Part shown: positions 25,912 through 48,071 of the stretch, in pieces
How the letters are laid out: every line of letters begins with the position of its first letter
Position numbering within the stretch: position 1 is the stretch's first letter
Origin: Candidatus Cloacimonadales bacterium
GTDB lineage: Bacteria > Cloacimonadota > Cloacimonadia > Cloacimonadales > JAFGVF01
Assembly (NCBI GenBank): GCA_963663475.2
Contig: CAXXJV010000001.1
Coordinates: 2,656,001-2,720,000 of the forward strand
Direction of reading: 5' to 3'
DNA: 64,000 nt
Notes under the pieces: generated by a model
What the model was told of the DNA's origin: nothing
Databases searched by the model: none
Seen by the model: the letters and a program-made list of their open reading frames with translations, nothing else
Program-made: the position numbers and the translations under genes

Positions 25912-28644
25912 ATGCTTATGTGGTTAACATATAAAGAATTGATGGCGTTCTATGATATTAGTAGAAGAACAGCTGTACGTAGAAAAGACAGCGGAGAATG
26001 GCCCACCAGGAAGATTAAGAATCCTAAGGGTGGAAAAGCTATAGCTTTCTTCTTTATTGCAGAAGCAGACCAACATGCCATTTTTGAAGATAATGGTGTA
26101 GATCGTTCTCAAATCCAATGTGCCACTTCTGAAGACCTAGTTATAGAAAATGTAAAAAATTTTGTTTCTGAAGATGGAAAAAAGGAAAAAATGGCAGACC
26201 CGGCTCTGCCAAAAAGTGAAAATCAACGTGCCAAAATTGATAAAAGCTTGAAAAATATAGAAGATAGCATTATGCCACAACGTGCCACCAATATGCCAAA
26301 CAAAAACCAACGTGCCATCAATGTGCAAAATGAAAATCAATGTGCCACCAACGTGCCAAATGAAAATCAAGGTGGAAGTGGTTTTGGTGAAGAGAAGAAC
26401 CACCCCGTCTTGGAAAGGGCGAAAAATGTTTCGCCCCTACGAGGGGAATTAATGCCGACAGGGATGTCGGCGCTCCCAGTAGATCCATTAAGATGGATTC
26501 CTTTAGATAGAGCTAGTGCTTTGTCTGGGTTAAGCGAAAGGACTCTATATAGAAGAATAGAGAGTGGAGAGCTTTATTCAATCACTGTGCCTGATAAATT
26601 GAGTAAGCAGAGAGCATTGATAGAGGTTTCAGGTTTTTCAAATGAGGTTGTGGCTCGGTGGAGAGCAGAGGTATTGGCAAATAATAATGATTTGGCAAGT
26701 ATTCTTCATCAGGAGAAGAAGGAGTTTGAGCTTCATTGCAAAGATGATAAGGATGTAGCTTGGGCTCGTAAAAGCATAATTGAAGAATATTATAATTACA
26801 GGAAATTAGCTAAAGCGAGTGGTACTTCTTTAACGACAGCCTGTAAGCAATTTGAAATAAAGCTAAATAATAATGAGTTGTTACCAGGTATATTAAAGAG
26901 GTTAGGTGCTGTTTCTGTGAGTATAAAGACTATAAAGAAATGGGAGAAAACTTGGAGAGACAGCGGAAATAATACTTACCCAGTTAGTTTATTGGATAAT
27001 AAGAAGGGTAAGGTAGGAAGAAAGAGTCTTGTAAGTAGCAAATTAGAGAAAGAAATAGAGTATTATGCAACATCTTATAAAGATTTTCCTGCCAGTGAGA
27101 TATACAGGGTTTTAAGTGAAAGTGCTGCTTTAATAGGAGAAGAGCTTCCAATAAGTGTAAGGACTTTGACTAATTTAGTAAATAAAATCAGATCTGATAA
27201 AGCTAAGTTAGCTTTGATGAAAGGTAAGAAATGGGAAAAGGATAATTTAAGACCTCATGTAAAGAGAATCAATAATGCTTTACCTGGCCAGATAGTAGAG
27301 AGTGACGGGCATAAGCTGAATAACTTAGTATATTCTCCATTTTATGCTCATAAATCAGAGTTTAAGTATTTAGTAAGACCTCAACTGATGGTTTGGTATG
27401 ATGTAGGAACAGGATTTATATTAGATGGGACTTTGACATTATCAGAGAATAGAAATGTGGTCAGGACTTCTTTAAGATATGCAATTCTAAAAGGTGGATT
27501 ACCTGATGAGGTTAGATTAGATAACGGTCCTGCATATAAGAATGCTGATTTTGTACCTTTAGCTTATGCAGGTAAGAAAAGACTAACACCTGCTGTAAAA
27601 AGAGCTAAAGAGATGTTAAGCAAGGGAGATAAGGGATTATATGCTAATTTGGGCATTTCCTGTAGATTTACGATACCTGGTAATCCTGAATCAAAGAGTA
27701 TTGAACCATTTTGGGGTTTCTGTGTATCAATGTTTGAGAAGATATTCCCTGTTTGGATTGGTAATAATATTCAAAACAGACCTGATATTCTTAAACTTAC
27801 CAATGCTGTTTTAATGAAACGATACGGCAAGTATATACCAACCTGGGAACAATATGATGAACTGCTTCAGAGGTTTATACAGGTATGGAATAACAGGAAA
27901 AGAGGATGTTTAGTTAATGGCAGAGGTGAAACACTTTCTCCACAAGAAGCTTATTCTCAGGTAGAACACAAGACTCTTCCTTTAGAGGAGTTAGAGAGAA
28001 TAACAAAATTTGCTTATCCTAACCCATATATGGTCAGTAGAGGGCGAATAAATGTTAATGGCATATTATATTGGCATCCAAGTTTTAGAGCCTTAGAGGG
28101 CAAGAATGTTAACACTTACTATGACGAGAAGAATATAAAGGAAGTTACTATTGGTACTGAATATGGTGAGATTTTTCAACAACCAGCAATGATAGTTTAT
28201 CCAGGTCTGCAAGTAGGTGATGACATGGGTGCTTATATTGAAGCACGCCACCAAGAAAAAGTAATGATGTCTGTTTATGCTGCAATTAATGAGGCAGGCG
28301 GAAATGTGGCCCGTAATAGGATAATGCTTGAAGCTACTTCAGATACAGTATTTATCCAGGATAAGAAACAAGATAAGATTAAACAAGGTGATAAGATGCT
28401 TATGCCTTCACCAAATAACAATTCTGAACATGCTATTAAGCTTATTCCTGAAGATGAAATCACAATTACTGAAGATGATATAGCTAAATCTAAGCAAGCC
28501 AGTGAAGAGGCTGAGATTGAGAGTGAAGAAATTGAGAATGAGAAGATTAAGAGTATTATGCAGAAGATAAGAGAGAATCAAGAAGAAGAAATTGAAGAAG
28601 ATGATGAGATAGAGAGTATTTTGAGAGAGATGGGAGTGAGTTAA
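25912..28644 (+). CDS. Mu-like DDE transposase (MuA)
   Basis: 910 aa; two N-terminal excisionase-like HTHs; ESDGH, RLDNGPAY and SKSIEPF DDE triad; followed by an AAA ATPase. Confidence 0.9.
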   Translation: MLMWLTYKELMAFYDISRRTAVRRKDSGEWPTRKIKNPKGGKAIAFFFIAEADQHAIFEDNGVDRSQIQCATSEDLVIENVKNFVSEDGKKEKMADPALPKSENQRAKIDKSLKNIEDSIMPQRATNMPNKNQRAINVQNENQCATNVPNENQGGSGFGEEKNHPVLERAKNVSPLRGELMPTGMSALPVDPLRWIPLDRASALSGLSERTLYRRIESGELYSITVPDKLSKQRALIEVSGFSNEVVARWRAEVLANNNDLASILHQEKKEFELHCKDDKDVAWARKSIIEEYYNYRKLAKASGTSLTTACKQFEIKLNNNELLPGILKRLGAVSVSIKTIKKWEKTWRDSGNNTYPVSLLDNKKGKVGRKSLVSSKLEKEIEYYATSYKDFPASEIYRVLSESAALIGEELPISVRTLTNLVNKIRSDKAKLALMKGKKWEKDNLRPHVKRINNALPGQIVESDGHKLNNLVYSPFYAHKSEFKYLVRPQLMVWYDVGTGFILDGTLTLSENRNVVRTSLRYAILKGGLPDEVRLDNGPAYKNADFVPLAYAGKKRLTPAVKRAKEMLSKGDKGLYANLGISCRFTIPGNPESKSIEPFWGFCVSMFEKIFPVWIGNNIQNRPDILKLTNAVLMKRYGKYIPTWEQYDELLQRFIQVWNNRKRGCLVNGRGETLSPQEAYSQVEHKTLPLEELERITKFAYPNPYMVSRGRINVNGILYWHPSFRALEGKNVNTYYDEKNIKEVTIGTEYGEIFQQPAMIVYPGLQVGDDMGAYIEARHQEKVMMSVYAAINEAGGNVARNRIMLEATSDTVFIQDKKQDKIKQGDKMLMPSPNNNSEHAIKLIPEDEITITEDDIAKSKQASEEAEIESEEIENEKIKSIMQKIRENQEEEIEEDDEIESILREMGVS

Positions 28645-28693
28645 TGCGGGTAAGATGCCCGCGTTCCCAGTTAATAAAGATAAAGGAGTAGAA

Positions 28694-30015: not shown

Positions 30016-30569
30016 GTAGTGCAAATCAAAAGAAGAATGCTCTGGTGGCAGGGATGCCACCAGTCCATAGCCCTAAACAAGAAGCTTATGCTAAGAGCTT
30101 GAGACAGCATATAATGATAAGCAGTAAGAAGCAACACAATTGGAGCAATGAAGAATTTCATGACATGTTGAAGTCCTGGGGATTCGGTAGTTCTTTAAGA
30201 AAGCTAACAATTCAGCAACTTCAGACTGTGCTGAGGATTGTTAAGGGAGACGAAAATCCTAAGCAGAAAGAAGTTTCTCCAAGAGAAAAATACGGAATTG
30301 GTAGGTTTGATAAACAAGGTGATTATGTATGGAGTTTAATCCAACAGGTTGGTTGGACTAATGATAGATTTAGGAAGTTTATTGGAAAGCATTATCAGAC
30401 TGTACATTGGAATGCTTTAGAACCTAAAGAAAGGAGTGGTTGTATTGCTATGCTTAAGAATTATTTGAAGAAAGTGGAGAGGAATCTATCCAGGAGTCTT
30501 CGCAAAGCTACGCCATCCCAGGCTAATTACACAAATTACACTAAAAATCAAGAAGGAGAAAAACGATGA
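30012..30569 (+). CDS. GemA/DUF1018-like protein
   Basis: SSLRKLTIQQLQTVL and C-terminal CIAMLK patterns; typical Mu early-region position. Confidence 0.65.
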   Translation: MSSANQKKNALVAGMPPVHSPKQEAYAKSLRQHIMISSKKQHNWSNEEFHDMLKSWGFGSSLRKLTIQQLQTVLRIVKGDENPKQKEVSPREKYGIGRFDKQGDYVWSLIQQVGWTNDRFRKFIGKHYQTVHWNALEPKERSGCIAMLKNYLKKVERNLSRSLRKATPSQANYTNYTKNQEGEKR

Positions 30570-31312
30570 GTAGAGAATTATTTGGAAGAAGCAAAATTAA
30601 TGGCGGAGATGAAAGGAAGATGCCGACAGGGATGTCGGCGCTCCCAGTGGAGATGACACCAGAAGAGAGATTTAAGGCTGTTGAAGTAATGAAAGGCAGG
30701 TTAGAAGAAGACTTTATTAGCCTAGGAGAGATACTTTCTGAGATAAAGAGCAAACGCATATTCAAGATTAAAGGTTATAAGAACTTTAGAGATTTTGTAG
30801 AGATTGAACATAACCTGCCTGCAAGTGTTGCTAATAAGTTAGTTAAGATTTATGATTACTTTATTAAAGATATGGGCATTGATTCTGCTACAGTTCAGGA
30901 GATAGGTTTGGATAGATTGAATACTATTCATCCTCTTATTAAAGATTCTGATTATGTAGTCCAGGAGGAGTGGTTAAAACAAGCTGAAGAACTATCTCAA
31001 CAAGAGCTTAGTGAGAAGGTGAAGGAGATAAGAGTTAAGAAAAAAGAGGATTCTAAGACATTAAAAGATGTCTTAGTTGAGCAGTTTATTGATAACATGA
31101 AAGGTTACTTTAATTGTTCTGGGAAAGAACTTAACTATAAATTAGCACTCTACTTCCAGGATATGGATTTAGACAAAATTAATGAGGTGATAAGAGAGAA
31201 GCAGAGAAGATTTGAAGAGCAAATTGAAGAGTCCACCCCGTCAGTGAAATACACTGACACCCCTCCACAGAGGGGAATTAATGCGGGCAAGGATGCCCAC
31301 AATCCCAGTTAA
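30566..31312 (+). CDS. Phage hypothetical (helical, possibly DNA-binding) protein
   Basis: 248 aa with LGEIL..IK...GY.NF.DF pattern; REP-derived peptides at both ends. Confidence 0.6.
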   Translation: MSRELFGRSKINGGDERKMPTGMSALPVEMTPEERFKAVEVMKGRLEEDFISLGEILSEIKSKRIFKIKGYKNFRDFVEIEHNLPASVANKLVKIYDYFIKDMGIDSATVQEIGLDRLNTIHPLIKDSDYVVQEEWLKQAEELSQQELSEKVKEIRVKKKEDSKTLKDVLVEQFIDNMKGYFNCSGKELNYKLALYFQDMDLDKINEVIREKQRRFEEQIEESTPSVKYTDTPPQRGINAGKDAHNPS

Positions 31313-34362: not shown

Positions 34363-34556
34363 GAGCAGAAATGACAGACATTAGATTTGTGTATTCAATC
34401 ATAGAAAGTAAAGAAAGGCATATTGCTAATCGTAGAAAAGAGAAATTGTATTGGCGTAAAGATATACGGAAACACAAGAACTATATTAGAGGATTAGAAA
34501 CAGAACTTAACCACTATAAAAGTATTTTAAATAAGTTAACACGAGTAACATATTAA
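34353..34556 (+). CDS. Phage hypothetical protein
   Basis: Short ORF; probable start ATG near 34371 after AGGAG. Confidence 0.45.
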   Translation: MVLGAEMTDIRFVYSIIESKERHIANRRKEKLYWRKDIRKHKNYIRGLETELNHYKSILNKLTRVTY

Positions 34557-34669
34557 CTTAATCATAATGCTTAAGAAGATATTTGAAAAGAGAAAGTCGG
34601 CAATAATAAATGAGAAAAATGTTGACCAATATGTGGAAAAGATAATTATTTGTGAAAAAAGGAGTGAAT

Positions 34670-35755
34670 ATGGAACTTATTATCTATGTATTAATTGGTT
34701 TAGTTATAATATCAATTGTTATCTATAGCAGAAAGCCAAAAGAGAATGAGCAAAAACCTAGTACAACCTTAAAGAAAGAAGATATCAAACCGAATAATAG
34801 CAATGTTGTAGAACTACAAGCTAATTTAGAAGTACAAATTGTGGATAAAGAAGAAGAAAACAAGAATGTTGAAGATGATAATCTTCAAGTTGAGTTAGCT
34901 AATTTTGACATGGAAGAAGATGATTATAGCAGTGATAAAGAGTATATGAAGTACATGAGAGAAGGCTTTTCTGAAGATGTATCGGATGAGATGCTTAAGG
35001 CATTAATTGATTTGCTTCATTCTGGAGAAGGGTATTATGGTTTTAGAGAAAAAATAAAAGGTTTATTACCACCAGATTTTTATTACAGATTTTATGATAA
35101 AGATAAGGACGTAAGTTTCAAAGGTTTAAAGAGTGCTTTAAATGTGATGAAAGTAATAACCAAACCAAATTATGTATGCAGTGGGTATTCAGAAAATTCT
35201 TTTTATTACTTTGATAATGAAGAAGATATTGATGCAAGATACTTTACAAGAGTTGAGACTTCAAGAGAGCATTATCAATCTTACATGCTAACACTGAACC
35301 TGAATGACATGAAGAAGATATTGCCTTTTAAGGTAAGAAAAAAAGATGATTATGTTAATGGGATACTTGATAGTGTTGATATTACGGAAGTTGTAGAAAA
35401 ACTTAGCATACCTAAAATGATAACTGTTGAAACTACTGATGAATTTGATCAGATTAGTGACAGTATAAAAGGATATAATGAATTAATTAACCCTAACCTT
35501 TATACGATGTTTAATACATTATTAAAGAAGCATTATAAATATAGAGACTATAAGCAAATGAAAGGAACAGTAGACTTTTTCCCTAAAATTGAAATAAGTG
35601 GAAATGTTGAATATTGTTGTGAGAATTGCAGAAGAAAAATGAAAATCATATCAGTTAATAAACTTCAGTTAAGAGATTTACCACCATACAGTGATTGTGT
35701 CAATGATGCAGAACCTTGTTCGATATATACTGAACTGAAAATGGAAGATGAATAA
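34670..35755 (+). CDS. Membrane-anchored phage accessory (moron) protein with Cys-rich C-terminus
   Basis: N-terminal TM helix, acidic region, CCENC...LPPY..C...C; own RBS and TTGACC upstream. Confidence 0.65.
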   Translation: MELIIYVLIGLVIISIVIYSRKPKENEQKPSTTLKKEDIKPNNSNVVELQANLEVQIVDKEEENKNVEDDNLQVELANFDMEEDDYSSDKEYMKYMREGFSEDVSDEMLKALIDLLHSGEGYYGFREKIKGLLPPDFYYRFYDKDKDVSFKGLKSALNVMKVITKPNYVCSGYSENSFYYFDNEEDIDARYFTRVETSREHYQSYMLTLNLNDMKKILPFKVRKKDDYVNGILDSVDITEVVEKLSIPKMITVETTDEFDQISDSIKGYNELINPNLYTMFNTLLKKHYKYRDYKQMKGTVDFFPKIEISGNVEYCCENCRRKMKIISVNKLQLRDLPPYSDCVNDAEPCSIYTELKMEDE

Positions 35756-35863
35756 ATAAAAGAGAAATATAAGAGACCACCCCGTCTTTTTCGAAGCCAC
35801 CCCTCCACAGAGGGGAATTAAAGCGGGTTGGAAGCCCACGATTCCAGTTAATTAAAATAATTC

Positions 35864-36105
35864 TTGACAGCGTGCAGTTCCTTCTTATTTTAGGAATTGC
35901 ACGTTCCTTAAGGGTTGAGCCTTGCCCTTATCAAAGGCTTTTGTTCTTTTATGCCAATGAAGGCAATGATAATAACTTCGATAACTTAAATAAAAAGTTA
36001 AAGGAGAGCCAATGATTGATAGTTCGGTGACGGCTATCACGTTACTTAAGGAACGGTGCAAATCTTGGCTCTCCTTTTTTTAATGCAAAAAACCTTAAGG
36101 AGCCT
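35864..36105 (+). promoter_or_regulatory. Promoter and structured c4/CI-type leader upstream of the antirepressor
   Basis: TTGACA 35864; TTGCACGTTCCTTAAG (35897-35912) complementary to CTTAAGGAACGGTGCAA (36045-36061); terminator stem AAGGAGAGCCAA/TTGGCTCTCCTT plus T-run; CCTTAAGG repeated over the RBS. Confidence 0.65.
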
Positions 36106-36108
36106 ATA

Positions 36109-36723
36109 ATGGCAAACGCAGTTGAAATTAACGGTCAGAACCTTCCTGTCCGCGAATATGAAGGAGTAAGAGTAGTTTTAGGTCAAGATGTTGCTAAAGT
36201 TCATCAAGTACAACCAGAATCAATTAACAAGTTATTCTACAGAAACAAAAAACACTTTGTTGAAAATGTCGATTATTTTAAACTAAGAGACAAAAAAGCC
36301 ATATACTCAATTTGTCCATATGCCTCTAAAAACGTAACTAAAGTTAATGTTTATACAGAGTCGGGATACTTAATGCTTGTTAAGACATTAACAGACGATT
36401 TGTCCTGGCAGGTACAGAGATTGCTTGTTAATAACTATTTCAAGGTACAGGAAATCAAGAAGGTATATGCCCAGAAGAAGCCGATAGTGGATTTGGTAAG
36501 TCTTTATCCTTTATTGGATGAAGTATATAAGCAGATACTGTATTATCGATTTGAGAAGGGATTAACCCAGGAAGAGACAGCAAAGATATTGGGAGTTGGG
36601 ATTAAAGCCATATACACAAGAGAGAGTGAGCTAAGAGCTGTTGGGATATCACTACCACAACAGAGACGAAATGGAGCTAAGTATCAGCTTACAGCACTAA
36701 AGTTATTGGCAGAGGTGAAATAA
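36109..36723 (+). CDS. ORF6N-domain antirepressor with C-terminal HTH
   Basis: EYEGVRVV...VAKVH...F.RNKKHFVENVDYF, YTESGYLMLVK.L.DDLSW.VQR.LVN.YF. Confidence 0.88.
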   Translation: MANAVEINGQNLPVREYEGVRVVLGQDVAKVHQVQPESINKLFYRNKKHFVENVDYFKLRDKKAIYSICPYASKNVTKVNVYTESGYLMLVKTLTDDLSWQVQRLLVNNYFKVQEIKKVYAQKKPIVDLVSLYPLLDEVYKQILYYRFEKGLTQEETAKILGVGIKAIYTRESELRAVGISLPQQRRNGAKYQLTALKLLAEVK

Positions 36724-36932
36724 TGAAGTTAGAACTAAGAGAAAAGATAGAGAACTTGTTATTGGCTCAAGATGAATATGCCAGGTTGTTGGTTGAGGCT
36801 GGTAGAACTGGGACTCCTGTTAGTGGTGATATATACATAATGCTAAGTGATGCTAAGGATAGATTGATGGAAGAGATGAGGATGATGAGTGGGAATGGAG
36901 TTACAGAATTGTCGGAAGTCGCTACTTCGTGA
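36723..36932 (+). CDS. Small hypothetical protein coupled to the antirepressor
   Basis: TAATG overlap, GAGGTG RBS. Confidence 0.55.
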   Translation: MKLELREKIENLLLAQDEYARLLVEAGRTGTPVSGDIYIMLSDAKDRLMEEMRMMSGNGVTELSEVATS

Positions 36933-37035
36933 GCAAGACCCGTCATTAAGAGAAGACCTTCACACTAATTAAGGCGAATTAAAACGAATTACACGAATAA
37001 ATCTTGCTTGAAGCAAGAAAGTGATTAAGATATAA

Positions 37036-37290
37036 ATAGAAGCACCGAAAGAGCTTAATCCTCGTTTGATTGGTGTGGACGGCTGGAGTTGGATAAGCAG
37101 ACTACGAGCCCCTTGACGGAAAGGGCTAACCTGGAAGCGACGTTTGTTGATTCGTGGCGTGTTAGCGTCTTAATATTAACATAGAAGTGGAGAGAGAGCT
37201 TAATCCTCGTTTGATCAAAGCGGAAACTATGATATGATTAAGGTATCTGATAGACCATAAAAAAGGGAACACGATGTGCTCCCTTTTTCT
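37036..37290 (+). ncRNA. Candidate tandem small structured RNAs (two related units, period 145 nt)
   Basis: ATAGAAG-N7-AGAGCTTAATCCTCGTTTGAT-N6-GGA at 37036-37079 and 37181-37224; promoter-like hexamers before each; 3' hairpins; no ORF. Confidence 0.55.
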
Positions 37291-37294
37291 TTTT
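37259..37294. terminator. Bidirectional intrinsic terminator
   Basis: AAAAAAGGGAACAC-GAT-GTGCTCCCTTTTT between convergent units. Confidence 0.75.
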
Positions 37295-37296
37295 AC

Positions 37297-40086
37297 TCAT
37301 TTCAATAAATAGCCCATTCTCTGCTTGTTCATGTATTTAGCATTAGCATCAAAGAAGTTAAAGTATTCTATGTTTCCTTCTTGGTTGATATAGGTAATAA
37401 CACAGATGTTATCACTATATTTTTTGAGGTAATAGGTTCTGAAGACTTTAGTGCTGTTGTTATTATGCTTCCAGATTTCATCAGGATTTTGAACAACATC
37501 ATCAATAGTATTCATGTATTTTAAGCGACTTGCTACTTCCTTTAGAGGTTTGTTTTCGAAATGCTTAACTGCTTTTGCACTGAGATAAACATCAGTATTG
37601 GTGGAGTCTTTTAAGTGTCTATCCCCCAAGAAGTTTTTATAATCCTCTAGCAATTCATCTTTAGTTTTACCATCTGTATCGTAGAGTTTTGGCAGTTTAT
37701 TCTCTGGCATATCTTTCCAATCCTTAAGCTTTAAATCCTTGTAGGTATTTGCATATAAATCAGGGCAATGCTTTTTACCTGAGTTGAAGATGTGTAAACG
37801 CTTGCTTCTGATAGACATTTCTGGGTATAAAATAGAAATGTTTTTAGCATCTTCACAGCTTAACCAATCCCCAAAGAGAGAATTGTCTTTGCCTACATTG
37901 CGTTTAAATTCTTTTTTAACATTTGAATCAGGAGGAACATCTCTCTTGAGTCCAGGGTCTCCGTTAGCTTCTTCTTCAGTGAGTTGTTCTTTACCACAAC
38001 GACAACCCCAGCCATTAGGAGGATAATACTCATCCCAGAAAGGATCATCTACATGTCTGACTATACCATCTAAGGCTCTATGTTCATCTCTCACCGCATC
38101 ATCTTGCATGGTAATATAACGGAGATAAGGGAAGATTTCTTTAGTGTCCTGGATATCTTTCCATTCTGCAGATGCACGAGCCGATTTAATAGCTTGTTGG
38201 AAGTTGGTTCTTAGGTGATAAGGATTATCAGGTTCAAAACCTTTTAGCTTTAGATTTTCCTGAAACTCTTGAAATGTAGTACCTTGAGTAAAGGCTTTTT
38301 CCGCTTCGGACTTAATCATGTCAAGCATGGATTGAGAAGTAACTCCTGCTACGATAAAGGTTTCAGCTCTGAATGCATGGAGGGCTTTGGTATCTTCCAG
38401 GGTCCAGTCTATTTCGAAGTTGAAGTCAGCCCCTAAATCCCCTGAAGGGGACTTTGAAGAAACCTCACACGAAGGCACGAAGGCACGAAGAGGGGAATTA
38501 AGAGAAGATGCGGGCTGGAAGCCCACGTTCCCAGTTAAGGAAGAGGAAGCTTTCTTCTTTAGAGAAGCTTTTCTTAGCTTATAGTATTCTTTAAGAAGTG
38601 TTTGATACATCTCATTCGCATAGGTTAAATAGAGGTCTTTAGGATAAGACATATTTTCTATATCTTTGAATGACTTGGCTTCTTTGATTTGAGATTTGAT
38701 TTTCTTGAGTTCTTTGAGGGAAGCCCCTAAATCACCTGAAGGGGACTTTGAAGATATACAGTCAGTTGAACTGCCTGTGCGGGCAGGGATGCCCGCGTTC
38801 CCAGTTATGGCGGCAGGGATGCCCGCGTTCCCAGTTATGCCGACAGGGATGCCCGTGTTCCCAGTTATGCCGACAGGGATGCCAGCGTTCCCAGTGGAGC
38901 CAACCCCAACCCTATTCTGAAAAGGGAAGAGCTGAGATGCAACCTCCTTTAGTTTTGCACCAGACTTTGGTACAGGGATGCCATAAGTGGTGTACCAATA
39001 ATCAGGTTCGATTTCGATGATATTATTTAGTTGAGTATCGATGTTTATCTTTGTGTTTAAATCAACATGTTCAGGGATAGTAAGAGTTACTTTAATATCT
39101 TGGTCAACGAAGTTCAATCTGTTTAACCTGGAGCAGATATAAGAGATATACTTAGAGCAGTCTCTGATGTCAGCCTGGAGGATATCCTGTCTGACCATGT
39201 TATGAACCTTAGCTTGAGCATAGGATCCTGTCTTTTCAGTATTAGTTGTGAGAGTTTGGCCAAGTATTCTTTTAGAGATTGATTTTTTACAGAAATCTAA
39301 AAGAGTTGCGTAGAGATTAGCATTAGCTGAAGCATTTTTAAAGTCTGCGAACTCAATTAGAGTATTTTCAGAGATAACAGCTCCTAAGTCTGTACCCAGG
39401 TTCTTTACCATAGACTTGAGTAGGTTCTTCTCTTCAGGAGTTGAACCTGGTTTATATTTACCAATTCTGATAGGTTTTCCATAGGTTTCAACAAAGGAAG
39501 CCCAGTTGTTGAGAGCAAAGGAAAAGAAAGCATAGTATTTGATAATAGACTCATAGACTGAATAATTTTGATATAGACGCACAAATTTATCATCAGAGAG
39601 GCTTTTCTTCTCATCTTCGACATACAAGACCAATTCAGATTTTTCAGCCCTCAAATCGAGGTTTTTGTATTCTATGAACTTGTCTATGGTATAAAGATTG
39701 TTTTCCAGCTTAAAGGTAATCTGACGAAAGAGAGAACCAGTTAGTTTTAAATCAAGAGCCTGGTCAATGAGGACTGTAAAAAAGTTCTCTAAAAAGGCTT
39801 TAAAGAAGTCTTGTTGTTGCTTCGAGAGACCTTCAGGGAAAGTGAAAGAAGCTGATTTAAGAGCTTCTACTCTGACATCAGTATCCCCAGCCAGGTTATC
39901 ATCAAGCTTATATAGTCTATCATATAAGTTATTAAGGTGTTTTAATCTTCCATTGTTGGCATTATGTAGAGCTAAATCCATTTCTGAAGGTGTGATTTTA
40001 GCTGACCAAAGAGGTTTTTCTTCCTCAATTTTATTTTGAGTTAAGATGGTTGTTGATGTTTTTTTAAATAAATCAAGTATATTCAT
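37297..40086 (-). CDS. Fusion of portal (Mu gp29/DUF935), MuF head morphogenesis domain (gp30) and C-terminal PBECR2-like nuclease
   Basis: Portal: W..FVETYGKP.RIGKY, ILGQTLTT...GSYAQAKVH. MuF: YLRY.T..D..VRDEH..LDG...DDPFW..YYPPNGWGCRC. C-terminus: RLKYMNTIDDVVQNPDEIW...YYLKKY. Start at ATG 40086 with AAGGAG. Confidence 0.85.
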   Translation of the reverse strand: MNILDLFKKTSTTILTQNKIEEEKPLWSAKITPSEMDLALHNANNGRLKHLNNLYDRLYKLDDNLAGDTDVRVEALKSASFTFPEGLSKQQQDFFKAFLENFFTVLIDQALDLKLTGSLFRQITFKLENNLYTIDKFIEYKNLDLRAEKSELVLYVEDEKKSLSDDKFVRLYQNYSVYESIIKYYAFFSFALNNWASFVETYGKPIRIGKYKPGSTPEEKNLLKSMVKNLGTDLGAVISENTLIEFADFKNASANANLYATLLDFCKKSISKRILGQTLTTNTEKTGSYAQAKVHNMVRQDILQADIRDCSKYISYICSRLNRLNFVDQDIKVTLTIPEHVDLNTKINIDTQLNNIIEIEPDYWYTTYGIPVPKSGAKLKEVASQLFPFQNRVGVGSTGNAGIPVGITGNTGIPVGITGNAGIPAAITGNAGIPARTGSSTDCISSKSPSGDLGASLKELKKIKSQIKEAKSFKDIENMSYPKDLYLTYANEMYQTLLKEYYKLRKASLKKKASSSLTGNVGFQPASSLNSPLRAFVPSCEVSSKSPSGDLGADFNFEIDWTLEDTKALHAFRAETFIVAGVTSQSMLDMIKSEAEKAFTQGTTFQEFQENLKLKGFEPDNPYHLRTNFQQAIKSARASAEWKDIQDTKEIFPYLRYITMQDDAVRDEHRALDGIVRHVDDPFWDEYYPPNGWGCRCGKEQLTEEEANGDPGLKRDVPPDSNVKKEFKRNVGKDNSLFGDWLSCEDAKNISILYPEMSIRSKRLHIFNSGKKHCPDLYANTYKDLKLKDWKDMPENKLPKLYDTDGKTKDELLEDYKNFLGDRHLKDSTNTDVYLSAKAVKHFENKPLKEVASRLKYMNTIDDVVQNPDEIWKHNNNSTKVFRTYYLKKYSDNICVITYINQEGNIEYFNFFDANAKYMNKQRMGYLLK
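38777..38896. repeat. 4 x 30-bp tandem palindromic repeat inside the portal-MuF ORF
   Basis: Units of type ATGCCGACAGGGATGCCCGTGTTCCCAGTT, translated as TGNAGIPVGI-like repeats. Confidence 0.92.
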
Positions 40087-40226
40087 TTTTTTCTCCTTTA
40101 ATATTTTAAGAGCTTTTACACGAATTAACGCGAATTTAAGCGAATTAACACGAATTAATGCGGGAAAGATGCCCACGTTCCCAGTTAATTAAGATGCCGA
40201 CAGGGATGTCGGCGCTCCCAGTAGTG

Positions 40227-41726
40227 TTACCAGACATCAGAAAATTGAGTGGCCAGACTTGTTTCAACTGTTTCATAGCTTTCTTCTTGAGAGTTAATTC
40301 TAAGGCAATTTACTCCTCCTGCTAAGGCATCAGGACCGTCATCGTTAGGATAATCAGGGAAGCCGAGTAATTGGTCTTCCAGTAGTTGTGTTTCTGCTGT
40401 TTTTTGTTTAGGAAAGAGAAGCCAGCCCCACTCGAAGTAAGGCTCAAGTCTTTCAATTCTAAGTTCTTTCTTCTCTTTGTTTTCAACTCCTGAAAGAGGT
40501 AGCATATAACCCATAACAAGAGCAATATCAGGGATGTAGTCCCAGATAACCTTTTGCCAGAAGTTGGACTCCATATAAAGACGGGCATTGTATCTACTAT
40601 GAACAGAATAGAGGTATTTAAGCATTTCTGTAATAGAAGCTTTTCTTAAGTAGCATTCAAGTAGATAATAGTGTTTTTTATAGAAGCCAATAGTCATGGA
40701 GGCTTTGTAGTCTGAAGTAGATTTTTCACCTAAAGAAGGGTCTGTGTAGTTAACTATTTTCTCAAAGGTGATGTTTTCGATATCTTCAGGTGAGTAATAT
40801 CTAAACCAGGCTTCTTTGAACTTAAGGCCTTCGACTACTGGATTCATCCTAAAGTGGCGTTCATAACCAAAACGACCGATAGTCTGATAGATTTTGATCA
40901 GTTGTTCTTTGGTATGTTTTTCTGGCCATGTTGGATTAAAGTGACCATCATCAACTTTGAAGATAAGCATTTTACGACCAGAGAGATCTCCTGATTCTGT
41001 TGATTTCTTAAAGAGATTTAAAGCTGATTTCTGGTGAGTAAGATTACCAAGCCAGATGATATAGCCTTGTCCATCTTCCAGGGCACCATAAGCTTCTTCA
41101 GTAACGAATTGAAGCTTTTCTTTAGCAATTCTTTCATTAAAAGATAGGTGGTCTTCTAAGTCATCGATGTCTATATAGTCAGGTCTGTGAGTCATATTGA
41201 TAATACCACGAACTCCTGATTTATAACCAAGTGCTATGAAACGACAACCAGTTTTAATAGTAAAATCAGACTCTGAAGATGTTGATGCTAAGAGCTGACC
41301 GAAGTCTTGCTTTATTCTTTCATTAAAGAGGAATTCAGCTCTAATAGCTGCAGTTCTTTCAGCTGCTTTATCATCAGATTTAGCAATTTTGACATTAAAG
41401 AATATTTCTTCCTTAAGAGCTTTCCAGATAGGTTTGATAATAGATAACTGAGTTGTTTTACCCATACCTCTAAAGCCAGCAATAGCTGTAATTTGACCCA
41501 GTACTTGAGTTTCTTCATGAGCTATTTTATGAGGAGTTCCTGACTTACAGCGGATATAGTGAGGAAAGTAAGTTTCAGCAAAGAAAAAGAAGTCTTTTTT
41601 AGCTTTATCAACTCTCTTTGCTTTAGCTAATCTATCATTAGGCAGAGGTGTAGAGAACTTCTTAATATTAGCTATTAAGAGCTCGAGTTTCTTATCAAAT
41701 TCTTTTACTGTAATTTGCTTATTCAT
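40227..41726 (-). CDS. Terminase large subunit
   Basis: GFRGMGKT Walker A, IDIDDLE Walker B, YTDPS and DDGPDAL nuclease motifs. Confidence 0.9.
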   Translation of the reverse strand: MNKQITVKEFDKKLELLIANIKKFSTPLPNDRLAKAKRVDKAKKDFFFFAETYFPHYIRCKSGTPHKIAHEETQVLGQITAIAGFRGMGKTTQLSIIKPIWKALKEEIFFNVKIAKSDDKAAERTAAIRAEFLFNERIKQDFGQLLASTSSESDFTIKTGCRFIALGYKSGVRGIINMTHRPDYIDIDDLEDHLSFNERIAKEKLQFVTEEAYGALEDGQGYIIWLGNLTHQKSALNLFKKSTESGDLSGRKMLIFKVDDGHFNPTWPEKHTKEQLIKIYQTIGRFGYERHFRMNPVVEGLKFKEAWFRYYSPEDIENITFEKIVNYTDPSLGEKSTSDYKASMTIGFYKKHYYLLECYLRKASITEMLKYLYSVHSRYNARLYMESNFWQKVIWDYIPDIALVMGYMLPLSGVENKEKKELRIERLEPYFEWGWLLFPKQKTAETQLLEDQLLGFPDYPNDDGPDALAGGVNCLRINSQEESYETVETSLATQFSDVW

Positions 41727-42192
41727 CAGACATCCTAAAGTTGTTACCAGAAGCATATTTTCTTCTTAGATCATCTGAAATTTCTCTAAGATACTTGCCC
41801 CAGAGCATAAGAAAATCTTCATCTCTTATTTTGTTCTGAATGCAATGAGTAATGTCTTCTAACATATTAAAGATGTTGGAAAGCATCATTTTTTCAGGAG
41901 ATAGCTTCTCTGCTATTTTTGAAATCTTTGCTAAAGCATCAGCAGTTTTAGGATCTGTTAGCTTTCCTTCTTTCATGGCTTTATTCATTTCAGAAAAGAG
42001 AGATTTTGTCATTTCGATAGTTAAACCAATGGTACCTGAAGCTCTGATGGCCTTATCCCATTCATGTTTCTTTTTCCAAGCATAGATTGTCTGCTGAGAG
42101 ACTTTTAGAATAGTAGCAATCTCGTTTATTGGCTTACCTTCCATGATGTAGAGTCTTTCAGCTTGTTCTTTTACAATACGTTTATGAGCCAT
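41719..42192 (-). CDS. Terminase small subunit (DUF1804/HTH-like)
   Basis: A..LY...G....EIA..L.VSQQTIYAWKKK..W; directly upstream of TerL. Confidence 0.8.
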   Translation of the reverse strand: MAHKRIVKEQAERLYIMEGKPINEIATILKVSQQTIYAWKKKHEWDKAIRASGTIGLTIEMTKSLFSEMNKAMKEGKLTDPKTADALAKISKIAEKLSPEKMMLSNIFNMLEDITHCIQNKIRDEDFLMLWGKYLREISDDLRRKYASGNNFRMSDE

Positions 42193-43898: not shown

Positions 43899-44123
43899 AT
43901 GTTCTTCGATAGTATTAAACAAGCAGTAAAGAATGGTAGTAATGTGATACTAGAGTACGATAACTTCACCAATAGCAGTATTGAGGAATTAATATTTTTA
44001 GCAGCTCAGTCAAAGAGTCATATCACTATTACAAACTGTAGCAAATTATCGACAAGTGAGTTTGAGGGAATGTCGAACTTAGGTAGAAATTTGATTACTT
44101 TTGATATGAGGAAGGTTAAATGA
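43899..44123 (+). CDS. Small hypothetical protein preceding the head protease
   Basis: AAGGAGG RBS, overlaps the next gene. Confidence 0.55.
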   Translation: MFFDSIKQAVKNGSNVILEYDNFTNSSIEELIFLAAQSKSHITITNCSKLSTSEFEGMSNLGRNLITFDMRKVK

Positions 44124-45157
44124 AGTGGTATAAGATAGTTAATAAGGTAGAGCATACTGATGTCTATATCTATGATGAGATAGGCTTCTGGGGTACTAGG
44201 GCTTCTGATTTTGTGAAAGAGATTCGGCAGATTAAGAATGATATCATTTTACATATCAATTCACCAGGAGGGCAAGTCTTTGATGGATTGGCAATTTATA
44301 ATTCTCTTAAAGCTCATACTTCAAAAGTGACAACTAAAATTGAAGGGATTGCAGCTTCAATGGCTTCTATTATAGCCTTAGCAGGAGAGACTATCGAAAT
44401 GGCAGAGAATAGTATGTTTATGATACATAATCCTTTGGTCAATGTTACTGGAGACTCTGAAGAACTTAGAAAGAATGCTGAACTCTTAGATAGAATTAAA
44501 GAACAGATAGTTAATATCTATGTTAGTCACAGTAATCTATCTGCAGATGAGATAGGCAGTCTGATGGATCAGGAAACCTGGTTAACTGCTAAAGAAGCAA
44601 AGGAGAAAGGATTCATTAATTCAATAGTAGATAATGTAGTAGTTAGTAACAACTTTGGTCATCAATTCGAAGGTAAACAAGAGTACCAAGAGTGGATAAA
44701 AAACAATAAAAGAGAGGAGAATATGGAAGAATTATTTGAAGTATTAGGTGTAAAAGATAAGGCTGAAGCAGTTGTTAAGATTGATTCTTTAACTACTGAA
44801 GTAACAGCTTTAAGAACAAAAAATCAGAGATTAGAAACGGAAGTAAAAGACTTAAGAAAAATCAATATCGAAGCTAAAATCAATCAAGCGATAAGTGAAG
44901 GTAAGATAACCCCAGCCCAGAAAGACTTTGCGACAACACTCATTAATAAAGATGAAGCTTTGTTTGATGAGTTTGTTAAAAATGCTGGTAATAGTAAGTC
45001 AGACCTTACTAAAACAATCACCCTGGGTGCAAATGCTGATGAAGAACTAACTTGGGAAGTTTTGATACAGGACCCTGAAAAGGCAGGAGAACTCTATAAC
45101 ACAAATCCTAAGTTATACGAAGAACTAAGAAACAAATACTTGGAGGATAACAGATAA
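44120..45157 (+). CDS. ClpP-type prohead protease fused to scaffolding domain
   Basis: INSPGG, GIAASMAS, MIHNP, ETWL.AKEA..GF; C-terminal coiled coil with GKITPAQ. Confidence 0.92.
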   Translation: MKWYKIVNKVEHTDVYIYDEIGFWGTRASDFVKEIRQIKNDIILHINSPGGQVFDGLAIYNSLKAHTSKVTTKIEGIAASMASIIALAGETIEMAENSMFMIHNPLVNVTGDSEELRKNAELLDRIKEQIVNIYVSHSNLSADEIGSLMDQETWLTAKEAKEKGFINSIVDNVVVSNNFGHQFEGKQEYQEWIKNNKREENMEELFEVLGVKDKAEAVVKIDSLTTEVTALRTKNQRLETEVKDLRKINIEAKINQAISEGKITPAQKDFATTLINKDEALFDEFVKNAGNSKSDLTKTITLGANADEELTWEVLIQDPEKAGELYNTNPKLYEELRNKYLEDNR

Positions 45158-47234: not shown

Positions 47235-47275
47235 TCATGGAATGCCTGCAGGATGCAGGCGTTCCCAGTAATATA

Positions 47276-48071
47276 ATGGAGAAATAAAACTTTCGAGAGT
47301 AGTATAATAGGCTGGGTAGGTGGAAAGAGACTTTTAAGAAAAAGGATCATTCCACTTATCCCAAAACATAATTGGTACTGTGAGCCATTTGGTGGAGCAG
47401 GTTGGATTTTATTTGCGAAAAGCAATGATGCGAAAGATTGGAAAATAGAGAATAAACCGAATTACCGAGAGATATTTAATGATATTAATGGTGATTTGAT
47501 AAACTTCTGGCGATATATCAAATACCACCCAGATGCTTTTCATAAGGAGTTAGAACAATACATGGTTTCCAGAGAGCTTTTTAAAGAGATGATAGAAATG
47601 AAAGCTAGAACCGACTTAGAGAGAGCTGTATTCTTTTATTATAAGCTATCTTGCTCTTTTGGTGGATTATCTCGTTCATTTGCTTTAAGAGGTGGCTCTA
47701 ACATTATCCCTCTATTCAATAAGGATAAAGTTGATAAAGCGTCTAAAAGGCTGGCTAATGTGGTAATAGATAACCTTGGCTTTGAGAAGTTAATTACTAA
47801 GTATGACAGGGATTTTACCTTCTTCTATGTAGATCCTCCTTATTATGAGAAAGAGAAACTTTATGACAGAGATTCTGTTGATGCTTTTACTCAGCATAAG
47901 GAACTTAGAGAGCTTCTTGGCAAGGTAAAAGGCAAATGGTTACTCTCTTATAATGATCATCCTAAAGTAAGAGAATTATACAAAGGTTATGATATCCAGG
48001 AGGCTGAAACACTTTATTCTCTATCAGGGAAAACACTACCAAAGACAGAGATTCTGATAAAGAACTATTAA
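47276..48071 (+). CDS. D12-class N6-adenine DNA methyltransferase with disrupted or non-canonical start
   Basis: Open frame from 47277 reads IIGWVGGKRLL...YCEPFGGAG...ND.NGDL...FYVDPPY...LSYND; no in-frame ATG/GTG/TTG before the conserved N-terminus. Confidence 0.85.

What the first reader, a model, noticed from the sequence alone, without database searches (positions are those of the whole stretch)
37297..40086. Portal-MuF-nuclease triple fusion with no protein immunity gene
Seen: one ~929-aa ORF joins portal, a REP-filled linker, MuF and a ~150-aa C-terminal domain with the PDEIW motif of PBECR2-like RNase folds; a terminator follows immediately with no small ORF. Known: MuF polymorphic toxins are normally followed by an immunity gene, and gp29/gp30 are separate genes in Mu. 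Inference: a portal-tethered, possibly protease-released, injected nuclease neutralised by RNA or by compartmentalisation.
Basis: partly seen in the sequence, partly recalled or inferred. Interest (0 to 1): 0.7.

Follow-up and report, generated by a model that had tools for sequence, protein, structure and literature searches.

The report
Known portal-MuF-RNase phage head fusion
A Mu-like prophage encodes one long head protein that joins the portal, the MuF head protein and a predicted RNase domain; this layout is already in print and normally has no immunity gene, so it is mostly ordinary, apart from linkers built from the host genome's own short repeats.

Summary
Window 37297-40086 (- strand) is one 929-aa ORF with Portal_Mu, Phage_Mu_F and PBECR2 domains. 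A strong terminator follows it and no small same-strand ORF does.

Iyer et al. [quoted passage not shown] Here PBECR2 was the commonest recognised C-terminal domain of Mu-type F proteins, found in 22 of 65 scanned. The genes that follow are the usual Mu G and I head genes, or convergent cargo genes. A missing immunity gene is therefore the norm.

The fusion is real. It is kept in 17 of 32 database hits, in a second prophage of the same genome, and in a deposited Porphyromonas phage.

Two details go beyond the literature I could see:
- Both inter-domain linkers are built, in frame, from genome-wide REP-like repeats that are otherwise mostly intergenic. Their content differs between close relatives.
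- The PBECR2 module is hypervariable (37-66% identity) in proteins that are otherwise 88-99% identical. It does not co-vary with the neighbouring genes.

RNase activity, cleavage from the portal and injection are all untested. I found nothing to support an RNA antitoxin.

The parts
37297..40086 (-). CDS for the portal-MuF-PBECR2 fusion, 929 aa from the ATG. The open frame runs on to a GTG at 40176.
   Evidence: It equals database protein P0002.
38977..39930 (-). Portal_Mu domain (P0001 residues 83-400)
   Evidence: E 9e-57. It aligns with the separate 390-aa portal gene of relative L009 up to P0002 residue 371.
38722..38970 (-). Linker 1, the portal/MuF junction. It is an in-frame translation of REP-like units: four 30-nt units at 38777-38895 and one hairpin unit at 38714-38754.
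   Evidence: The full-length model has pLDDT below 50 and no secondary structure over most of P0002 373-460. The sister prophage lacks one 30-nt unit.
38542..38721 (-). Conserved helical N-terminal segment of the MuF part (LKELKKIK...YYKLRK)
   Evidence: Conserved in alignment A2. It lies inside the separate MuF gene of L009.
38428..38541 (-). Linker 2, a second in-frame REP-like insertion: one 30-nt type unit at 38507-38535 and one hairpin unit at 38420-38460. The paralogue in the sister prophage lacks it.
   Evidence: pLDDT is below 50 over P0002 508-586.
37996..38316 (-). Phage_Mu_F core domain (P0001 621-727)
   Evidence: E 1.5e-16
37303..37623 (-). PBECR2 domain (P0001 852-958) with PDEIW at 898-902. 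The hypervariable module begins at about 37649.
   Evidence: DNA similarity to the sister prophage stops at 37649.
37259..37289 (-). Intrinsic terminator hairpin with flanking A and U runs, so possibly two-way
   Evidence: -18.5 kcal/mol, z -4.7
37020..37222 (-). Two copies of a conserved box of about 50 nt (core ATCAAACGAGGATTAAGCTCT), at 37025-37070 and 37170-37215, around a spacer of about 100 nt. Function unknown.
   Evidence: (D5). In the genome it is found only behind the two paralogues. It is also behind the gene in L003 and L004.
40115..40222 (.). REP-like repeats in the spacer between the upstream 509-aa gene and this gene: 10-nt tandem units and two 30-nt type units
40227..41756 (-). 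Upstream 509-aa gene, taken to be the large terminase by position only
   Evidence: No Pfam match (protein 14). It lies between a small-terminase-like gene (41719-42192, DUF1804/Terminase_5) and the portal.
44120..45157 (+). ClpP-type protease fused to a Mu I-like region. This is the candidate prohead protease that could cut the linkers.
   Evidence: protein 19. Cleavage is inference only.
34400..36950 (+). Prophage-specific cargo convergent with the fusion gene: ORFs of 367 aa, 204 aa (ORF6N plus sigma-70 region 4) and 69 aa
   Evidence: L003 lacks this cargo although it has the same PBECR2 allele.

Best explanation
This is the head-vertex protein of a Mu-like temperate phage integrated in a Cloacimonadota-type genome. 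In this lineage the portal gene (Mu gp29 type) and the next gene (Mu gp30/F type) have become one reading frame. In many Mu-like phages the F-type gene already carries a C-terminal PBECR2 domain.

Shown here: the three domains, the open frame, its conservation, the disordered repeat-derived linkers and the terminator.

Inferred: a portal's C-terminal end faces the capsid interior (recalled structural knowledge). The fusion would therefore place up to twelve MuF-PBECR2 units inside the head next to the DNA end. The long flexible linkers would let the prohead protease, or another cut, free them so they could leave with the DNA. Once in the cell, PBECR2 would cleave RNA early in infection, as Iyer et al. 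2017 proposed.

No immunity gene is needed, for two reasons. The gene sits in the late packaging operon of a prophage, so it would be made only in cells already committed to lysis. The domain is also a regular part of Mu-type F proteins and not a swapped-in bacteriocin. The fast divergence of the PBECR2 module suggests an arms race with host or rival-phage factors.
For: Domains: Pfam and PHROG matches.

Prophage context: S24 repressor, MuA-like and MuB-like genes, GemA, small terminase, Mu Gp36, Phage_tail_S and a ClpP/Mu-I protease.

The fusion is conserved:
- 29 of 32 database hits of 527-1679 aa carry Portal_Mu and Phage_Mu_F in one protein, and 17 of those also carry PBECR2.
- 8 of 77 genome loci are fused.
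- A paralogue 92% identical lies in a second prophage of the same genome.
- The 852-aa 'portal protein' of a Porphyromonas phage has the same three domains.

PBECR2 is common in F proteins:
- 22 of 65 scanned MuF ORFs have it.
- Of the 33 library representatives that match the C-terminal 160 aa, 8 are 743-879 aa long and 10 are 316-452 aa long.

No linked immunity gene:
- In 6 of 8 Cloacimonadota-type loci the first downstream gene is convergent.
- In other Mu-likes the next recognisable genes are Phage_tail_S, Mu-like_Pro or a D12 methylase.
- L003 shares this PBECR2 allele (91%) but not the neighbouring cargo.

Fold: the AlphaFold model of the last 160 aa has pLDDT 91.2. Its best structural matches are the colicin D tRNase (Z 4.6 and 4.1), CdiA-CT toxins, RelE/YoeB, BrnT and colicin E5.

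Linkers: pLDDT below 50 and coil.
Against: - The structural scores are low. No match reaches Z 5 and Foldseek found nothing at E <= 0.001, so the BECR fold rests mainly on the Pfam profile.
- The alignment shows no invariant His or Ser/Thr. The conserved polar residues are R884, E900 and R953, so catalysis is not assured. The paper says Mu gp30's own C-terminal domain is inactive.
- Twelve tethered copies per head would differ from the one to two copies of SPP1 gp7 per capsid quoted in PMC5576092. Nothing here shows cleavage, packaging or injection.
- A C-terminal module this variable (45% identity against 98-99% for the rest) is the pattern of toxin-immunity systems. That leaves room for an unlinked immunity factor.
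- Close relatives L006, L008 and L009 have portal and MuF as separate frames, so the fusion is not obligatory.
- The full-length model is poor overall (mean pLDDT 55.8).
Confidence: 0.6

Rival explanations
1. The C-terminal domain is a non-catalytic nucleic-acid-binding or structural part of the head, as proposed for Mu gp30's inactive PBECR and as seen in DNA-binding SPP1 gp7. The fusion would then only simplify assembly at the portal vertex, and nothing toxic is delivered.
For: - 32 aligned domains show no invariant His or Ser/Thr.
- The paper calls Mu gp30's domain inactive and suggests RNA binding.
- The domain is widespread in ordinary F proteins that are followed by ordinary head genes.
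- Only weak structural Z scores link it to RNases.
Against: - R884, E900, W902 and R953 are invariant or nearly so across very distant members, which suggests a conserved active or binding site.
- Mu gp30 lacks the Glu in the stretch that hhalign placed opposite it, although that alignment is not significant (E 0.6).
- Hypervariability of the rest of the module is unusual for a purely structural part.
- The paper predicts that orthologues of Mu F with intact sites are RNases.
Confidence: 0.2
2. It is a true MuF polymorphic toxin whose immunity factor is encoded elsewhere. One possibility is a lysogeny-expressed gene of the prophage that protects the lysogen from the RNase injected by related superinfecting phages.
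For: - The C-terminal module is 37-66% identical between proteins that are 88-99% identical elsewhere, and it differs between two prophages of one genome.
- The break in DNA similarity starts exactly at the module (37649).
- Other MuF proteins in the same survey carry CdiA_C (7) or ADP-ribosyltransferase (2) toxin domains.
- Several unannotated small ORFs exist in both prophages.
Against: - No same-strand ORF follows the gene.
- The neighbouring cargo does not co-vary with the allele. L003 has the same allele but different cargo, and L008 shares the ORF6N gene but has a different allele.
- The sister prophage has a type II restriction-modification pair at that place.
- No immunity family is known for PBECR2 in the texts I read.
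Confidence: 0.1
3. The nuclease is held in check by an RNA encoded just downstream, that is, a type III-like or antisense antitoxin.
For: - A conserved non-coding element lies directly behind the gene. In this genome it occurs only behind the two paralogues.
- It includes two 46-nt direct repeats (D5) and is conserved behind the gene in L003 and L004.
Against: - There is no tandem array. The two boxes are 145 nt apart here, L003 has a single box, and in L004 they are about 1.1 kb apart with ORFs between them.
- The box is the same behind different PBECR2 alleles.
- Rfam gives only two chance-level matches, and both lie on the terminator.
- The box lies beyond a strong terminator.
Confidence: 0.03
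4. The single frame is an accident or a decaying gene: repeats inserted between two genes happened to stay open, with no function as a fusion.
For: - The linkers are made of repeats that are otherwise mostly intergenic. Only 15 of 82 copies lie in open frames of 150 aa or more, against 84% of random positions.
- Close relatives have separate genes (L006, L008, L009).
Against: - Fused forms without these repeats exist down to 35% identity and in other phyla.
- Both paralogues keep the frame through different repeat contents.
- Flanking domains are 98-99% conserved between the paralogues.
Confidence: 0.03

Closest known systems
Portal-MuF-PBECR 'simplest polyvalent' architecture (Iyer, Burroughs, Anand, de Souza, Aravind 2017, J Bacteriol; PMC5512222)
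   Same: It has the same three domains in the same order, lies in the packaging module of a (pro)phage, and is predicted to be packaged and delivered as an RNase. [quoted passage not shown]
   Different: This member is from Cloacimonadota. Its two linkers are built from host REP-like repeats. Its PBECR2 module is hypervariable among near-identical phages. I could read only the text and legends, not Fig. 5A or the supplements, so I cannot say whether these relatives were in that data set.
Phage Mu gp29 (portal, H) and gp30 (F)
   Same: Portal_Mu and Phage_Mu_F families are both present. The gene order terminase, portal, F is the same. Mu F also has a C-terminal domain at the equivalent place (MuF_C, E 3.6e-4, below its cut-off).
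   Different: Mu has two separate, slightly overlapping genes. Mu's C-terminal domain matches MuF_C and not PBECR2, and the paper calls it inactive. In Mu, genes G, I and T follow F. Here the packaging operon ends at this gene and the head genes lie on the other strand.
MuF polymorphic toxins of temperate phages (Jamet et al. 2017, BMC Biol; PMC5576092)
   Same: It has a MuF domain followed by a variable C-terminal effector domain, is encoded by a temperate phage next to portal and terminase genes, and is proposed to be delivered by the virion.
   Different: No immunity gene follows, and none co-varies nearby. The C-terminal domain varies within one family (PBECR2) and is not exchanged between unrelated toxin folds.
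Porphyromonas gingivalis phage 'portal protein' (PP754930.1, 852 aa)
   Same: Portal_Mu, Phage_Mu_F and PBECR2 sit in one annotated gene behind the terminase and adaptor genes.
   Different: It is only about 25% identical over the MuF-PBECR2 part. It is followed on the same strand by a 41-aa hypothetical gene and then neck and tail genes. I did not look at its linkers.
Rickettsia palindromic elements inserted in frame into genes (recalled from Ogata et al. 2000; not looked up here)
   Same: Short dispersed palindromic repeats are tolerated inside open reading frames and become extra peptide segments.
   Different: This is a different organism and a different repeat family. At the strict threshold, the long ORFs hit here are only the two portal-MuF genes. 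Looser matches also fall in two other prophage ORFs.

Membership tests
Portal-MuF-PBECR polyvalent virion protein (Iyer et al. 2017) | Phage_Mu_F domain and portal domain in one polypeptide | tested here: met
   Portal_Mu E 9e-57 and Phage_Mu_F E 1.5e-16 in one uninterrupted frame
Portal-MuF-PBECR polyvalent virion protein (Iyer et al. 2017) | C-terminal PBECR-family domain by profile | tested here: met
   PBECR2 scores 59.2 bits against a cut-off of 27.1. The paralogue scores 44.2 bits.
Portal-MuF-PBECR polyvalent virion protein (Iyer et al. 2017) | BECR fold (N-terminal helix followed by a four- or five-stranded sheet) | tested here: inconclusive
   The model (pLDDT 91.2) has helices followed by four long strands. 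The best VIA matches are the colicin D tRNase at Z 4.6 (rmsd 3.0, 80 aligned) and Z 4.1, then CdiA-CT, RelE/YoeB, BrnT and colicin E5, all below Z 5. Foldseek gives nothing at E <= 0.001.
Portal-MuF-PBECR polyvalent virion protein (Iyer et al. 2017) | [quoted passage not shown] | tested here: inconclusive
   R884 is nearly invariant in the helix before PDEIW. No conserved His or Ser/Thr is seen. E900, W902, R953 and G955 are conserved. I could not see Fig. 3D to map the positions.
Portal-MuF-PBECR polyvalent virion protein (Iyer et al. 2017) | Encoded among virion or packaging genes of a (pro)phage | tested here: met
   small-terminase-like, Mu Gp36, Phage_tail_S, protease and capsid genes lie around it, and Mu-type transposition genes lie upstream.
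Portal-MuF-PBECR polyvalent virion protein (Iyer et al. 2017) | Packaged in the virion and delivered into the host | not testable with these tools
   Needs virion proteomics and infection assays
MuF polymorphic toxin-immunity system (Jamet et al. 2017) | MuF domain with a variable C-terminal effector domain | tested here: met
   The PBECR2 part is 37-66% identical where the rest is 88-99% identical
MuF polymorphic toxin-immunity system (Jamet et al. 2017) | Cognate immunity gene immediately downstream | tested here: not met
   No same-strand ORF above 36 aa lies before the convergent genes. The first downstream gene is convergent in 6 of 8 Cloacimonadota-type loci. The neighbouring cargo does not track the allele.
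MuF polymorphic toxin-immunity system (Jamet et al. 2017) | Toxicity of the C-terminal domain | not testable with these tools
   Needs expression and RNase assays
Type III toxin-antitoxin (RNA antitoxin) | Tandem array of short antitoxin repeats next to the toxin gene (definition recalled) | tested here: not met
   The tandem-repeat scan of 36900-40300 found nothing between the gene's stop and the 10-nt genome-wide repeat at 36967-36991. The two 46-nt boxes are 145 nt apart. Relatives have one box or distant boxes.
Phage Mu-type portal (gp29) | Full-length match to the Portal_Mu profile | tested here: met
   profile positions 2-336 of 336

The most novel reading that the evidence does not exclude
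The PBECR2 module is an injected RNase with no immunity partner that is being swapped or diversified quickly among otherwise identical Mu-like phages. The pressure would come from host RNA-based defences or from rival prophages. In this reading the host's own REP-like intergenic repeats have been recruited repeatedly, in frame, as disordered and perhaps protease-cut tethers between portal, MuF and effector. Genome repeats would then supply evolvable protein linkers that set how the effector is released from the portal.
Probability: 0.2. Interest if true: 0.55.

Novelty: new member of a known kind. Interest (0 to 1): 0.3.

Why it matters
For the question asked, the result is deflating. The triple fusion and the missing immunity gene fit a class of virion-borne phage effectors described in 2017, so no new neutralisation mechanism is needed.

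Three things remain useful:
- The locus gives a natural pair of alleles. Two prophages in one genome are identical except for the PBECR2 module, which would suit a test of what these unstudied domains cut and why they diversify.
- It shows that dispersed REP-like repeats can be carried in frame as protein linkers in phage structural genes.
- It raises a concrete structural question for portal biology: how can a twelve-fold portal carry, or shed, twelve MuF-effector units?

Tried and rejected
- Sequence search of solved structures with the C-terminal profile found only chance-level hits with E >= 0.17.
- Foldseek against the PDB gave no match at E <= 0.001. No family is excluded by this.
- Rfam at gathering scores found only a group II intron piece at 2737-2812, outside the prophage. 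A permissive Rfam scan of 36900-37320 gave two matches with E 0.5-0.6, both on the terminator.
- ARAGORN found no tRNA or tmRNA in the window. I had wondered whether the ...CCACACCA end of the downstream element was tRNA-like.
- hhalign of the C-terminal profile against Mu gp30 placed the PDEIW helix opposite gp30 residues 353-375, but without significance (E 0.6).
- The PADLOC scan of the cargo ORFs found only weak PDC-S05 matches for the ORF6N protein, and a restriction-modification pair in the sister prophage. No candidate immunity family appeared.
- The full-length AlphaFold model was too poor (mean pLDDT 55.8, pTM 0.29) to say how the domains pack.
- Two literature searches found nothing on these points: portal + Phage_Mu_F + fusion returned 3 papers, none relevant by title, and Cloacimonas/prophage/Mu-like returned no paper containing 'Cloacimonas' among the 10 listed.
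- I did not use sequencing-run look-ups or complex prediction.
Full report
**1. The observation**

One search shows a single open frame at 37297..40176 on the - strand. Homologues start at the same MNIL.... The 30 codons upstream are translated repeats, so I take 40086 as the start.

Pfam (numbering from the GTG) finds three domains:
- Portal_Mu at 83-400, E 9e-57.
- Phage_Mu_F at 621-727, E 1.5e-16.
- PBECR2 at 852-958, 59.2 bits against a cut-off of 27.1.

PHROGs agrees, matching portal and 'minor head protein and DNA pilot' families. PDEIW is at residues 898-902.

Directly after the stop there is a 14-bp hairpin with a U run: -18.5 kcal/mol, z -4.7, and 0 of 200 shuffles fold as well. The consensus scan had missed it. 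No same-strand frame longer than 36 aa follows before the convergent genes.

**2. Context**

The window holds a Mu-like prophage at about 24000-54900. Its genes include:
- an S24/HTH repressor;
- a 910-aa protein with a Mu transposase C-terminal match;
- an AAA protein in the MuB position, GemA and DUF3164;
- on the - strand, Mu Gp36, Phage_tail_S, a small-terminase-like gene and a 509-aa gene with no Pfam match, which I take to be the large terminase by position only, followed by this gene;
- on the + strand from 44120, a ClpP/Mu-I protease, the capsid protein, a lysozyme and large tail genes.

The packaging operon therefore ends at this gene, convergent with the end of the early/middle region. 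Record titles of the closest loci name Candidatus Cloacimonadales and Cloacimonadota MAGs.

**3. Is the fusion real and conserved?**

Yes.
- Among 32 database hits of 527-1679 aa to residues 600-959, 29 carry Portal_Mu and Phage_Mu_F in one protein, and 17 of those also carry PBECR2. Shorter proteins were not candidates in that search.
- Seventeen of these proteins align end to end down to 35% identity.
- The same genome holds a second, related prophage with a paralogue 92% identical and also uninterrupted.
- Of the 77 genome loci fetched, 8 have portal and MuF in one frame: L003, L004, L005, L007, L010, L013, L026 and L035. L013 is a Pedobacter.
- Close relatives L006, L008 and L009 have two adjacent frames instead. 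In L009 the portal gene ends at the point that aligns with P0002 residue 371, and the MuF gene aligns from residue 455. The join is therefore linker 1.
- In the phage collection, the 852-aa 'portal protein' of a Porphyromonas gingivalis phage has the same three domains.

**4. Is it known?**

Yes. Iyer et al. 2017 defined the PBECR domains. I read section 19 in full and other passages. [quoted passage not shown] They also state that such proteins are likely packaged and injected, that Mu gp30 itself ends in an inactive PBECR-type domain (MuF-C), and that orthologues with intact sites are likely RNases. They suggest host or phage mRNAs, or CRISPR RNAs, as targets. The seven passages that contain the word 'immunity' do not name an immunity protein for PBECR.

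Jamet et al. 2017 describe MuF toxins with immunity genes and note that muf genes follow portal genes (passages only). A 2026 preprint places the PBECRs in a colicin-like group of BECR RNases (passages only).

**5. Is a missing immunity gene unusual?**

No.
- I scanned 65 of the 76 MuF ORFs in the fetched loci. I left out 9 that were cut or short (L019, L023, L040, L050, L055, L058, L063, L065, L071) and 2 with the same ORF coordinates and HMM scores as L073 (L075, L076).
- Of the 65, 22 have PBECR2, 1 PBECR3, 1 MuF_C, 7 CdiA_C, 2 an ADP-ribosyltransferase, and 32 have no recognised C-terminal domain.
- The 33 library representatives that match the last 160 aa fall into three length groups: 8 of 743-879 aa, 10 of 316-452 aa and 15 shorter.
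- Of the 20 genes that my own PBECR profile picked out, one (L017) ends at its contig end, leaving nothing downstream to examine. In L002, L003, L004, L005, L008 and L009 the first downstream gene is convergent. L007 and L010 have small same-strand ORFs, and the four of those I scanned (110, 224, 66 and 92 aa) have no Pfam match. In the other Mu-likes that I scanned, the next recognisable genes are Phage_tail_S (Mu G type), Mu-like_Pro (Mu I type) or a D12 methylase, with three unassigned ORFs of 69-163 aa.
- In Mu itself, G follows F.

**6. The C-terminal domain**

An alignment of 32 domains gave an AlphaFold model with pLDDT 91.2, showing helices followed by four long strands. Foldseek found nothing at E <= 0.001.

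The exhaustive aligner ranked the colicin D tRNase first (Z 4.6, rmsd 3.0, 80 aligned, and Z 4.1). After it came CdiA-CT toxins, a Salmonella toxin-antitoxin complex chain, BrnT, RelE, colicin E5 and YoeB. The list is rich in BECR RNases, but every score is below Z 5, so I count the fold as supported mainly by the profile.

Conserved residues are R884, P898, E900, W902, R953 and G955. There is no invariant His or Ser/Thr. This could be the Arg-type site mentioned in the paper, but I could not see the figure. Catalysis is therefore plausible and unproven.

**7. What goes beyond the paper**

*(a) The linkers.*
- Linker 1 (38722-38970) and linker 2 (38428-38541) are translated REP-like units.
- The 18-nt core occurs 82 times in the genome at up to 2 mismatches, against 0 for the reversed control.
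- Only 15 of those 82 lie in open frames of 150 aa or more, against 84% of random positions. All 10 that lie in frames of 300 aa or more are in the two portal-MuF genes.
- The two paralogues differ by one 30-nt unit in linker 1 and by the whole insertion in linker 2. L003 carries other repeat modules at the same two sites, always in frame.
- The full-length model is poor (mean pLDDT 55.8), but it shows pLDDT below 50 and coil across most of both linkers.

*(b) The PBECR2 module is hypervariable.*
- Against the paralogue, identity is 99% (portal), 99% (MuF) and 98% (middle), but 45% in PBECR2. P0006 shows 96/99/94/44 and P0007 shows 94/88/85/37. P0003 keeps 91% in PBECR2.
- DNA similarity between the two prophages stops at 37649.

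*(c) The neighbouring cargo does not track the allele.*
- L003 shares the allele but not the cargo at 34400-36950. L008 shares the ORF6N gene but has another allele.
- The sister prophage has a type II restriction-modification pair at that place.

**8. The RNA idea**

A conserved box of about 50 nt lies behind the gene, twice here at 37025-37070 and 37170-37215. In this genome the element was found only behind the two paralogues. It also lies behind the gene in L003 and L004.

It is not a tandem array. It is the same behind different alleles, it sits beyond the terminator, and it matches no Rfam family. I see no support for an RNA antitoxin, and the function of the box is unknown.

**9. Mechanism**

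*Shown:* the domain order, the conservation, the disordered repeat-derived linkers, the position in the late operon, the absence of a linked immunity gene, and the variable module.

*Inferred:*
- The C-terminal fusion places the MuF-PBECR2 units inside the capsid. This rests on the recalled fact that a portal's C-terminal crown faces inward.
- The linkers may be cut by the ClpP/Mu-I protease encoded at 44120-45157.
- The freed units may leave with the DNA and cleave RNA early in infection.
- A lysogen needs no protection because late genes are off.

The main unknowns are catalysis, cleavage and copy number.

**10. Verdict**

This is a new member of a known kind. The repeat-built linkers and the allele pair are modest new details. 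Interest is 0.3.

Noticed in passing
window 26461-26480 and 30629-30648 (also 28652-28671): The same REP-like unit lies in frame inside two other prophage ORFs. It reads MPTGMSALPV in the 910-aa MuA-like protein (25912-28644) and in ORF 30566-31312. All 13 copies in the window are on the + strand, whatever the gene's strand.
   Followed up: partly
G000:C1 about 140569-173227 (outside the window): A second, inverted Mu-like prophage lies in the same genome. Its late region is 96-98% identical, while the early genes, the cargo and the PBECR2 module differ.
   Followed up: partly
L081:740-2927 (G000:C1:158239-160426): The sister prophage carries a type II restriction enzyme (DUF6996/DUF6997/DUF7226; PADLOC REase_II, E 5e-120) with a D12 methylase. 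They sit at the place where this window's prophage has the 367-aa, ORF6N and 69-aa genes.
   Followed up: no
window 37020-37222; L002 4400-4575; L003 6834-6927; L004 6824-6912 and 7905-7995: A conserved box of about 50 nt (core ATCAAACGAGGATTAAGCTCT), often followed by a small hairpin with a T run, recurs at the border of the variable cargo region in four related prophages. In L004 two copies flank 179-aa and 80-aa ORFs. It could be a promoter, a small RNA or a recombination site.
   Followed up: partly
window 2737-2812 (-): Group II intron domain match (RF00029, 60.2 bits) next to ORFs on the - strand, outside the prophage.
   Followed up: no
window 47496-48071 (+): A 191-aa ORF matches only the C-terminal three quarters of the D12 adenine methylase profile (positions 55-252 of 253). 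It may be truncated or have a mis-set start. It sits among late genes just after a REP-like unit at 47250.
   Followed up: no
window 44120-45157 (+): The head protease is a ClpP-type domain fused to a Mu I-like C-terminal part, not a plain Mu I protease.
   Followed up: no
L024, L036, L038, L042, L045, L060, L062; L033, L044: Other Mu-type F proteins in the survey end in CdiA_C (7 loci, mostly with Bacteroidota-type record titles) or ADP-ribosyltransferase domains (2 Riflebacteria loci). These are classical MuF polymorphic-toxin forms. I did not examine their downstream genes.
   Followed up: no
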